From sequence record PQ438391.1: 64,000 nucleotides of DNA. One strand, written 5' to 3'. Shown here one piece after another: positions 36,461 through 36,637 of this stretch (its first letter is position 1; every line of letters starts with the position of its first letter). The position numbers and the translations under genes were made by a program. This stretch comes from Escherichia phage vB_Eco_T-01. A model generated the notes under the pieces. The model did not search any database. It was not told the DNA's origin and saw nothing but the letters and a program-made list of their open reading frames with translations.

Positions 36461-36637
36461 ATGCCGTTATACGACTATAAATGTCAATCTGAAGATTGCG
36501 GGCATGAATATGAAAAAATTAAAAAGATTTCTGAACGAGAAAATGATGTTTGCCCTAAATGTCATCGTTTGTCTACTCGTCGGCCTTCTGCTCCTAAGCA
36601 TGTGAATGGTGGTTTTTACGATTTGCTTAAAGGGTGA
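36461..36637 (+). CDS. putative zinc-ribbon small protein
   Basis: 58-aa ORF with CQSEDC ... CPKC (two CxxC pairs). Confidence 0.45.
   Translation: MPLYDYKCQSEDCGHEYEKIKKISERENDVCPKCHRLSTRRPSAPKHVNGGFYDLLKG

What the first reader, a model, noticed from the sequence alone, without database searches (positions are those of the whole stretch)
36461..36637. Small zinc-ribbon protein gene upstream of topoisomerase gene 39
A 58-aa ORF not in the ORF track encodes two CxxC pairs (CQSEDC ... CPKC) spaced as in zinc-ribbon regulatory proteins. Its ATG follows the previous stop by 2 nt and its stop overlaps the next start.
Basis: seen in the sequence. Interest (0 to 1): 0.35.

Follow-up and report, generated by a model that had tools for sequence, protein, structure and literature searches.

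The report
T4 gene 39.2 zinc-ribbon ortholog
The 58-codon ORF is a real, conserved gene, but it is the already-described phage T4 gene 39.2 (NwgI), a small zinc-ribbon protein reported to adjust the host GroEL chaperonin, so the finding is ordinary.

Summary
The ORF at 36461..36637 (+) exists as described and encodes a 58-aa protein. The window is a T4-like (Tequatrovirus) genome. The ORF is the ortholog of T4/RB69 gene 39.2: 83% and 93% identical, in the same cef-goF-39.2-...-39.1-gene 39 block, and present in 919 phage records. Purifying selection is strong (dN/dS 0.01-0.12). It passes the curated cut-offs of Pfam PF09723 (Zn_ribbon_8) and TIGR02605 (FmdB-family zinc ribbon). An AlphaFold2 model gives a four-strand zinc ribbon (residues 1-40) and a disordered but conserved tail (SAPKHVNGGFYD).

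- The first cysteine pair is Cx4C, not CxxC. In relatives it varies (CxC, CxxC, CxxH).
- The downstream gene most likely starts at ATG 36640, 2 nt after the stop, not at the overlapping GTG.

The label "regulatory" is only a historical family name. Published genetics and biochemistry on T4/RB69 Gp39.2 (Ang & Georgopoulos 2012) indicate that it shifts GroEL toward the GroES/Gp31-binding state.

One side observation may be new. In Rak2-like jumbo phages, a gene of the same Pfam family lies directly upstream of a GroES-like (Cpn10) gene. This linkage is confined to that lineage.

Verdict: already known, low interest.

The parts
36450..36454 (+). Shine-Dalgarno-like AAGGA, 6 nt before the ATG, lying inside the last codons of goF
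   Evidence: Read directly from the sequence. The 'ttaaggaataat' context is conserved in ime09, T4 strain 147, RB69, JS10, VR26 and ESh30.
36461..36637 (+). Gene 39.2 ortholog (NwgI family): 58 codons plus a TGA stop
   Evidence: ORF listing. Annotated as gp39.2 in ime09, RB69 and JS10. 83% identical to T4 strain 147 and 93% to RB69 Gp39.2. dN/dS 0.01-0.12.
36461..36580 (+). Zinc-ribbon domain (residues 1-40). Ligand codons: C8 (36482-36484), C13 (36497-36499), C31 (36551-36553), C34 (36560-36562). Includes the conserved EKIKKISER linker.
   Evidence: PF09723 matches residues 1-41 and TIGR02605 matches 1-41. M1, P2, Y4, Y6, C8, R26, C31 and C34 are invariant in 14 phage homologs. The AF2 model has strands 3-8, 16-20, 28-30 and 37-40 at pLDDT about 83.
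36581..36634 (+). C-terminal tail (residues 41-58) with the conserved motif SAPKHVNGGFYD, predicted disordered. I infer it is a candidate partner-binding segment.
   Evidence: The motif (S/T)AP..(V/I).GG(F/Y)YD is conserved across Straboviridae-type homologs. pLDDT is 52-58. The binding role is inference only.
36039..36458 (+). Context: goF ortholog (139 aa) immediately upstream
   Evidence: ORF list; phrog_622 and goF phrogs; goF annotation in ime09, T4 and RB69.
36640..37011 (+). Context: downstream gene (123 aa from ATG 36640), a goF paralog similar to RB69ORF005c and absent from T4
   Evidence: phrog_622 at 5.9e-30, the same family as goF. Annotated from the equivalent ATG in ime09, RB69 and ESh30. 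Junction comparison.
37017..37277 (+). Context: gene 39.1 ortholog (86 aa from ATG 37017) with a signal peptide and an LVGC lipobox
   Evidence: Translation; phrog_902; annotated gp39.1 in ime09 and JS10.
37347..39164 (+). Context: DNA topoisomerase II large subunit, in the fused 39+60 form (605 aa from ATG)
   Evidence: ORF list. Annotated gp60plus39 in ime09 and RB69. T4 has it split into 39 and 60.

Best explanation
This is the ortholog of bacteriophage T4/RB69 gene 39.2 (product Gp39.2, also named NwgI). It is a 58-residue protein made of an N-terminal FmdB-family zinc ribbon (ligands C8, C13, C31, C34) and a short, conserved, probably flexible C-terminal tail. It is translated from the early-region polycistronic message between goF and a goF paralog. 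It has its own AAGGA ribosome-binding site and 2-nt gaps to both neighbours.

By orthology with the studied T4 and RB69 proteins, it most likely acts on the host GroEL chaperonin. It would shift GroEL toward the 'open' state that binds the co-chaperonin (host GroES or phage Gp31). That would safeguard GroEL-dependent folding of phage proteins, classically the major capsid protein, on hosts whose chaperonin works poorly. It is not a transcription factor.

Shown here: the gene is real, conserved, under purifying selection, a family member, orthologous and syntenic.
Taken from the literature on the orthologs: the effect on GroEL.
Inferred: that this particular protein has that effect, and that the tail is the contact element.
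For: Gene reality and orthology:
- The ORF and its junctions are as read.
- Orthology with named gp39.2 genes, in the conserved order cef-goF-39.2-(ORF005c)-39.1-39, holds in ime09, T4, T4 strain 147, RB69, JS10 and VR26.
- In the Krischvirus KFS-EC the gene lies directly upstream of the topoisomerase II large subunit.
- Identity is 93% to RB69 and 83% to T4 strain 147.
- 919 phage records carry it.
- dN/dS is 0.01-0.12.

Family and fold:
- PF09723 scores 47.5 bits (cut-off 34.4) and TIGR02605 scores 45.9 (cut-off 31.3).
- The ligand positions are conserved.
- The AF2 model is a zinc ribbon over residues 1-40.

Function of the orthologs:
[quoted passage not shown] It shifts GroEL toward the open conformation that binds GroES-type co-chaperones, and a T4 39.2 deletion is blocked on specific groEL mutant hosts.

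Independent context hint:
- In Rak2-like jumbo phages, a gene of the same Pfam family lies immediately upstream of a Cpn10/GroES gene in all 7 loci examined.
Against: - No experiment exists on this particular phage's protein. The primary paper (Ang & Georgopoulos 2012, Genetics 190:989) is not in the held library, so the mechanism is cited second-hand and from my own memory of its abstract.
- No direct physical Gp39.2-GroEL complex or structure was found. There is no PDB sequence match and no significant fold match.
- The jumbo-phage ribbon proteins score no closer to the Straboviridae 39.2 profile than generic FmdB members do, so that gene linkage is family-level evidence and lineage-restricted. 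79 of 80 other viral Cpn10 loci lack such a ribbon. 80 bacterial FmdB loci have no Cpn10 within 5 kb.
Confidence: 0.85

Rival explanations
1. It is a transcriptional (or RNA-polymerase-binding) regulator, as the database label 'FmdB-like transcriptional regulator' implies. On this reading it acts with the neighbouring early-gene modulators (motB, goF, cef) to retune host or phage transcription.
For: PHROG phrog_1076 and RefSeq call it an 'FmdB-like transcriptional regulator'. It lies among early genes that modulate transcription or mRNA. The best, non-significant, fold neighbours are RNAP-associated zinc ribbons such as RbpA and RpoP/Rpb12 (E of at least 0.29).
Against: The label is a family name without experimental basis for this protein. 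No DNA-binding domain is present, and 40 of the 58 residues are the ribbon itself. The fold matches are not significant and are what any small zinc ribbon gives. Published work on the T4 protein points to GroEL.
Confidence: 0.06
2. It is a small zinc-ribbon adaptor with a different primary host target. The reported GroEL phenotypes would then be indirect, for example through altering the load of GroEL substrates or the heat-shock response.
For: The evidence I could read is genetic suppression plus 'biochemical studies suggest', with no structure of a complex. The FmdB family is widespread in bacteria with no known function and no linkage to groES in the 80 loci sampled.
Against: The authors describe allele-specific effects on groEL/groES mutants and biochemical support for a shift in GroEL conformation. 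A family member is linked to Cpn10 in jumbo phages.
Confidence: 0.08
3. It is a chance ORF or non-coding spacer between goF and the next gene.
For: It is short (58 codons) and lies in an AT-rich genome where short ORFs are common.
Against: Curated family cut-offs are exceeded. It is conserved in 919 records across several Straboviridae genera. dN/dS is 0.01-0.12 with a third-position bias. The SD sequence is conserved.
Confidence: 0.01

Closest known systems
Bacteriophage T4 / RB69 Gp39.2 (NwgI), Ang & Georgopoulos 2012
   Same: Same length (58 aa). 83% identical to T4 strain 147 and 93% to RB69. Same position in the cef-goF-39.2-...-39 block. Same Cx4C...CxxC ligand pattern and the same SAPKHVNGGFYDLLKG tail.
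   Different: Only a few substitutions. Here a goF paralog (RB69ORF005c-like) is inserted between 39.2 and 39.1, as in RB69 and ime09 but not in T4. The function was not tested for this allele.
FmdB-family zinc-ribbon proteins (Pfam PF09723 Zn_ribbon_8; NCBIfam TIGR02605 CxxC_CxxC_SSSS)
   Same: N-terminal MPxYxYxC start, two zinc knuckles about 20 residues apart, small size, and scores above both curated cut-offs.
   Different: The first knuckle is Cx4C, not the canonical CxxC. The tail is ...SAPxxVNGGFYD, not the common bacterial ...FKGSGWYVTDY followed by a Ser/Gly-rich extension. The phage subfamily has a distinctive EKIKKISER linker. The cellular family has no established function.
Zn_ribbon_8 proteins of Rak2-like jumbo phages (e.g. 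PBECO4 gp508, fHe-Yen9-04 g260, RaK2)
   Same: Same Pfam family (38.7-41.7 bits), the same MPLYxYxC...Cx4C start, and an EKIVKIAxR linker resembling EKIKKISER. They are linked to chaperonin biology through an adjacent Cpn10 gene.
   Different: 36-38% identical. The tail differs (GDKGxNLYFRGxWFANTGGY). They are no closer to the 39.2 profile than generic FmdB members. They sit in a different genomic context, next to GroES and virion genes rather than topoisomerase.
Phage co-chaperonins Gp31 (T4) and CocO (RB49)
   Same: Phage-encoded small proteins that adapt the host GroEL machine to phage needs (PMC5259590; own knowledge).
   Different: These are Cpn10-fold heptameric lids that replace GroES. 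Gp39.2 is an unrelated zinc ribbon that modulates GroEL's conformational equilibrium rather than capping it.

Membership tests
Pfam PF09723 Zn_ribbon_8 / NCBIfam TIGR02605 FmdB-family zinc ribbon | Profile score above the curated gathering or trusted cut-off | tested here: met
   PF09723: 47.5 bits against 34.4. TIGR02605: 45.9 against 31.3.
Pfam PF09723 Zn_ribbon_8 / NCBIfam TIGR02605 FmdB-family zinc ribbon | Two pairs of metal ligands (canonically CxxC...CxxC) after an N-terminal MPxYxYxC start | tested here: met
   Four ligand positions are present (C8, C13, C31, C34). C8, C31 and C34 are invariant in 14 phage homologs. The second ligand is always present but at variable spacing: Cx4C here, and CxC, CxxC or CxxH in relatives. 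The spacing of the first pair departs from the canonical CxxC.
Pfam PF09723 Zn_ribbon_8 / NCBIfam TIGR02605 FmdB-family zinc ribbon | Zinc-ribbon fold (two beta-hairpins that present the knuckles) | tested here: met
   The AF2 model has four strands (3-8, 16-20, 28-30, 37-40) at pLDDT about 83. The fold search returns only generic zinc ribbons at non-significant E-values.
Pfam PF09723 Zn_ribbon_8 / NCBIfam TIGR02605 FmdB-family zinc ribbon | Actual zinc binding | not testable with these tools
   Needs metal analysis of purified protein.
T4 gene 39.2 (NwgI) orthologous group | High sequence identity over the full length to T4 and RB69 Gp39.2 | tested here: met
   83% (T4 strain 147) and 93% (RB69) over 58 aa.
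T4 gene 39.2 (NwgI) orthologous group | Conserved position downstream of cef-goF and upstream of 39.1 and gene 39, in the same orientation | tested here: met
   Window ORF order matches ime09, T4, RB69, JS10, VR26 and ESh30.
T4 gene 39.2 (NwgI) orthologous group | Modulates GroEL/GroES: suppresses groEL/groES alleles, and is required for growth on certain groEL mutants | not testable with these tools
   Reported for T4 (PMC5153855; PMC4396842). Not tested for this allele.
Transcriptional regulators (as in the label 'FmdB-like transcriptional regulator') | A recognisable DNA-binding or RNAP-binding domain, or evidence of transcriptional control | tested here: not met
   No Pfam or NCBIfam domain beyond the zinc ribbon. 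Fold matches to RNAP-associated ribbons are not significant. No supporting literature was found.

The most novel reading that the evidence does not exclude
Chaperonin modulation may be a broader property of phage FmdB-type zinc-ribbon proteins, not a peculiarity of T4 Gp39.2. In the Rak2-like jumbo-phage clade (73 records carry the ribbon gene), the ribbon gene lay directly upstream of a GroES-like Cpn10 gene in all 7 loci examined. Those loci span ribbon-protein identities down to about 51%. This suggests a two-gene 'ribbon + co-chaperonin' module acting on host GroEL. By extension, the large cellular FmdB family, which has no known function, could include GroEL-interacting proteins.
Probability: 0.2. 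Interest if true: 0.45.

Novelty: already known. Interest (0 to 1): 0.1.

Why it matters
For genome annotation, the ORF should be called as gene 39.2 (NwgI-like GroEL modulator, FmdB-family zinc ribbon). It should not be skipped as too short or labelled a transcriptional regulator.

Biologically, it is an example of a very small phage protein that tunes an essential host machine. The gene itself adds nothing new. The only point that might repay follow-up is the conserved pairing of a same-family zinc ribbon with a GroES-like gene in jumbo phages. That pairing would extend the chaperonin link beyond T4-like phages.

Tried and rejected
1. The primary paper (Ang & Georgopoulos 2012) could not be read by DOI or PMC id. 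The function is therefore cited from two papers that summarise it.
2. A PDB sequence search gave only a spurious bL31 hit at E = 0.81.
3. A Foldseek search of the AF2 model against the PDB gave nothing below E = 0.29, only generic zinc ribbons. It gives no functional information.
4. The promoter/terminator scan found 19 promoter-like sites against 24.2 expected from shuffles, so there is no evidence for a dedicated promoter.
5. I tested whether the ribbon-Cpn10 linkage is general:
   - Of the 80 best viral Cpn10 loci, only the RaK2 locus has a ribbon neighbour.
   - 80 bacterial FmdB loci, mostly Acidobacteriota and so a biased sample, have no Cpn10 within 5 kb.
   - The jumbo-phage ribbons score no closer to a Straboviridae 39.2 profile than generic family members.
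   The linkage is therefore lineage-specific, and I do not claim it as strong evidence.
7. The word-indexed homolog search returned only 8 near-identical clusters. The exhaustive representative search gave 181 hits at E <= 1e-3.
8. I rejected the overlapping GTG start at 36634 for the downstream gene, because it is not conserved in T4 strain 147 or RB69.

Full report
**Observation**

The sequence at 36461..36637 (+) is an ATG-initiated ORF of 58 codons ending in TGA. It encodes MPLYDYKCQSEDCGHEYEKIKKISERENDVCPKCHRLSTRRPSAPKHVNGGFYDLLKG.

The upstream ORF (36039..36458) ends with TAA two bases before the ATG (TAA-TA-ATG). An AAGGA Shine-Dalgarno element lies 6 nt upstream of the ATG.

The protein has four cysteines, at positions 8, 13, 31 and 34. 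The first pair is therefore Cx4C (CQSEDC) and only the second is CxxC (CPKC).

The ORF listing gives the downstream ORF from a GTG at 36634, which overlaps the TGA stop. That start is not conserved:
- Relatives annotate the gene from the ATG equivalent to 36640, 2 nt after the stop.
- T4 strain 147 and RB69 have no GTG there but keep 'TT-ATG'.

The ORF, its length, its cysteines and the 5' junction are therefore confirmed. The 'two CxxC' description and the 'stop overlaps next start' detail need correction. Two genes also separate it from gene 39.

**What the window is**

A megablast of 35800..37400 finds 668 phage records, almost all Tequatrovirus and other T-even phages of Escherichia and Shigella. 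The best is 96.4% identical.

The local gene order is:
- cef (35824..36039; PF24050 T4_Cef, E = 5.5e-35)
- goF (36039..36458)
- the 58-aa ORF
- a goF paralog similar to RB69ORF005c (36640..37011)
- 39.1 (37017..37277)
- the fused 39+60 topoisomerase II large subunit (37347..39164)
- rIIA.1 and rIIA

It is the order annotated in ime09, RB69, ESh30 and, without the paralog, in T4, JS10 and VR26. In those records the 58-aa gene is named 39.2.

**It is a real gene**

- tblastn finds the protein in 919 phage records, 851 of them over at least 80% of its length.
- Against orthologs from ime09, T4 strain 147, RB69, JS10 and VR26, synonymous differences saturate while non-synonymous ones stay low. dN/dS is 0.01-0.12, and differences by codon position are, for example, 10/4/32 against JS10.
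- The Shine-Dalgarno context is conserved.

**Family**

The protein exceeds the curated cut-offs of Pfam PF09723 Zn_ribbon_8 (47.5 vs 34.4 bits) and NCBIfam TIGR02605 'FmdB family zinc ribbon protein' (45.9 vs 31.3). PHROGs places it in phrog_1076.

In an alignment of 14 phage homologs, M1, P2, Y4, Y6, C8, R26, C31 and C34 are invariant. The second ligand of the first knuckle is always present but its spacing varies:
- Cx4C in T-even and jumbo phages
- CxC in CF1, LPCS28 and Kc304
- CxxC in POP18
- CxxH in Krischvirus KFS-EC and Muldoon

Straboviridae-type members share an EKIKKISER linker and a tail (S/T)AP..(V/I).GG(F/Y)YD. Generic cellular members instead carry ...FKGSGWYVTDY followed by low-complexity extensions.

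An exhaustive HMMER search of 1.84 billion representatives gives 181 hits at E <= 1e-3 and only 5 at E <= 1e-10, as expected for so short a query.

**Structure**

An AlphaFold2 model built from a 30-sequence alignment has mean pLDDT 74.9. Residues 1-40 form four strands (3-8, 16-20, 28-30, 37-40) at pLDDT about 83, which is consistent with a zinc ribbon. Residues 41-58 are low-confidence (52-58).

There is no PDB relative by sequence. No structural match falls below E = 0.29, and the list is generic zinc ribbons such as RbpA, the MCM N-terminal domain and RpoP.

**Function**

The 'FmdB-like transcriptional regulator' label used by RefSeq and PHROGs is a family name. I found no evidence behind it for phage proteins, and the protein has no DNA-binding module.

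The T4 ortholog has been studied. [quoted passage not shown] It says the protein shifts GroEL toward the open conformation that binds the host and phage co-chaperones, and that a T4 39.2 deletion is blocked on specific groEL mutant hosts. PMC4396842 summarises it the same way. Both cite Ang & Georgopoulos 2012 (Genetics 190:989), which names the product NwgI. That paper is not in the held library.

From my own memory of its abstract, which I did not check here, the gene was first selected from RB69, and the homologs from T4, RB43 and RB49 behaved alike.

The window protein is 93% identical to RB69 Gp39.2 and 83% to T4 Gp39.2. Transferring the function is therefore a reasonable inference, but it remains an inference. 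The idea that the conserved disordered tail is the GroEL-contacting element is my speculation.

**Side finding bearing on function**

In Rak2-like jumbo phages, a PF09723 protein lies immediately upstream of a Cpn10/GroES-like gene (PF00166, about 60 bits). The genes are 2 to 25 nt apart or overlap. The ribbon protein is 36-38% identical to the window protein and has the same MPLYxYxC-x4-C start and an EKIVKIAxR linker.

The loci where I saw this are PBECO4, fHe-Yen9-04, pEa_SNUABM_49, three IMG/VR contigs of 348-366 kb, and RaK2 itself. The ribbon gene is present in 73 jumbo-phage records at 45-100% identity to the PBECO4 copy. The CBB genome paper mentions GroES-like genes in that phage but no zinc ribbon.

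The linkage is restricted to this lineage:
- 79 of the 80 best other viral Cpn10 loci have no such neighbour.
- 80 bacterial FmdB loci (a sample biased toward Acidobacteriota) have no Cpn10 within 5 kb.
- The jumbo-phage ribbons are no closer to the Straboviridae 39.2 profile than generic family members.

I treat this as a modest, family-level hint consistent with a chaperonin role, not as proof.

The only truncated version I found is the T4 RefSeq record NC_000866. There 39.2 is annotated as 45 aa, because one extra T (GCTTCC against GCTCC) shifts the frame. The same roughly 300-bp stretch has several other single-base differences and also splits 39.1. T4 strain 147 has the intact 58-aa gene and an intact 86-aa 39.1. 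A few database proteins (P0005, P0008, P0009) show similar frame artefacts. None of these affects the four ligand residues except P0009, whose N-terminus is frame-shifted.

**Verdict**

This is a genuine, well-conserved gene, but it is a known one: the ortholog of T4 39.2/NwgI, an FmdB-family zinc ribbon reported to modulate GroEL. Novelty is 'already known' and interest is low.

Noticed in passing
L011:1501-2008, L016:2001-2517, L015:2001-2522, L044:3001-3493, L046, L048, L120:2245-2800: In Rak2-like jumbo phages (PBECO4, fHe-Yen9-04, pEa_SNUABM_49, RaK2 and IMG/VR contigs of 345-366 kb), a PF09723 zinc-ribbon gene sits directly upstream of, or overlapping, a Cpn10/GroES-like gene. Because T4 Gp39.2 modulates GroEL, this may be a functional two-gene module. 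It is not seen next to other viral Cpn10 genes or next to bacterial FmdB genes.
   Followed up: partly
L002:5398-5839 (T4 RefSeq NC_000866) versus L003:1201-1640 (T4 strain 147): The T4 reference record has an extra T in 39.2 (GCTTCC against GCTCC) and several other single-base differences. As a result 39.2 is annotated as 45 aa and 39.1 as a 65-aa fragment. T4 strain 147 and the window encode an intact 58-aa 39.2 and an 86-aa 39.1. These are likely legacy sequencing errors or a lab-strain lesion in the reference.
   Followed up: partly
window 37017-37277 (+): The gene 39.1 ortholog has an N-terminal signal peptide with a lipobox (AVSLVG-C), i.e. a probable small lipoprotein (MKYVNRSIAALVLAVSLVGCTDADN...). 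This is conserved in JS10 and T4 strain 147. Its function is unknown.
   Followed up: partly
window 36640-37011 (+): A 123-aa gene between 39.2 and 39.1 falls in the same PHROG (phrog_622) as goF, so it is a goF paralog similar to RB69ORF005c. It is present in ime09, RB69 and ESh30 but absent from T4, JS10 and VR26.
   Followed up: partly
window 37347-39164 (+): The topoisomerase II large subunit is the unsplit 39+60 form (605 aa). It lacks the mobA/60.1 insertion and the gene 60 translational-bypass segment found in T4.
   Followed up: no
L007:1675-1773 (Krischvirus KFS-EC): In the RB49-like phage KFS-EC, the 39.2 homolog uses a CxxH first knuckle and lies between dexA and the topoisomerase gene. 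A TTGACA-containing spacer lies downstream of it. The goF, cef and 39.1 genes are missing from this block.
   Followed up: no
window 34338-35442 (+): Two adjacent ORFs (34338..34877 and 34954..35442) have similar C-terminal halves (…CG(W/Y)(V/I)TDQW(I/V)EDGV(E/K)L(L/Y)NVV…). They correspond to the tandem motB-like genes annotated in ime09 (motB plus RB69ORF010c-like). A strong sigma-70-like match (TTTACA-17-TATAAT, 34881-34909) precedes the second one.
   Followed up: no
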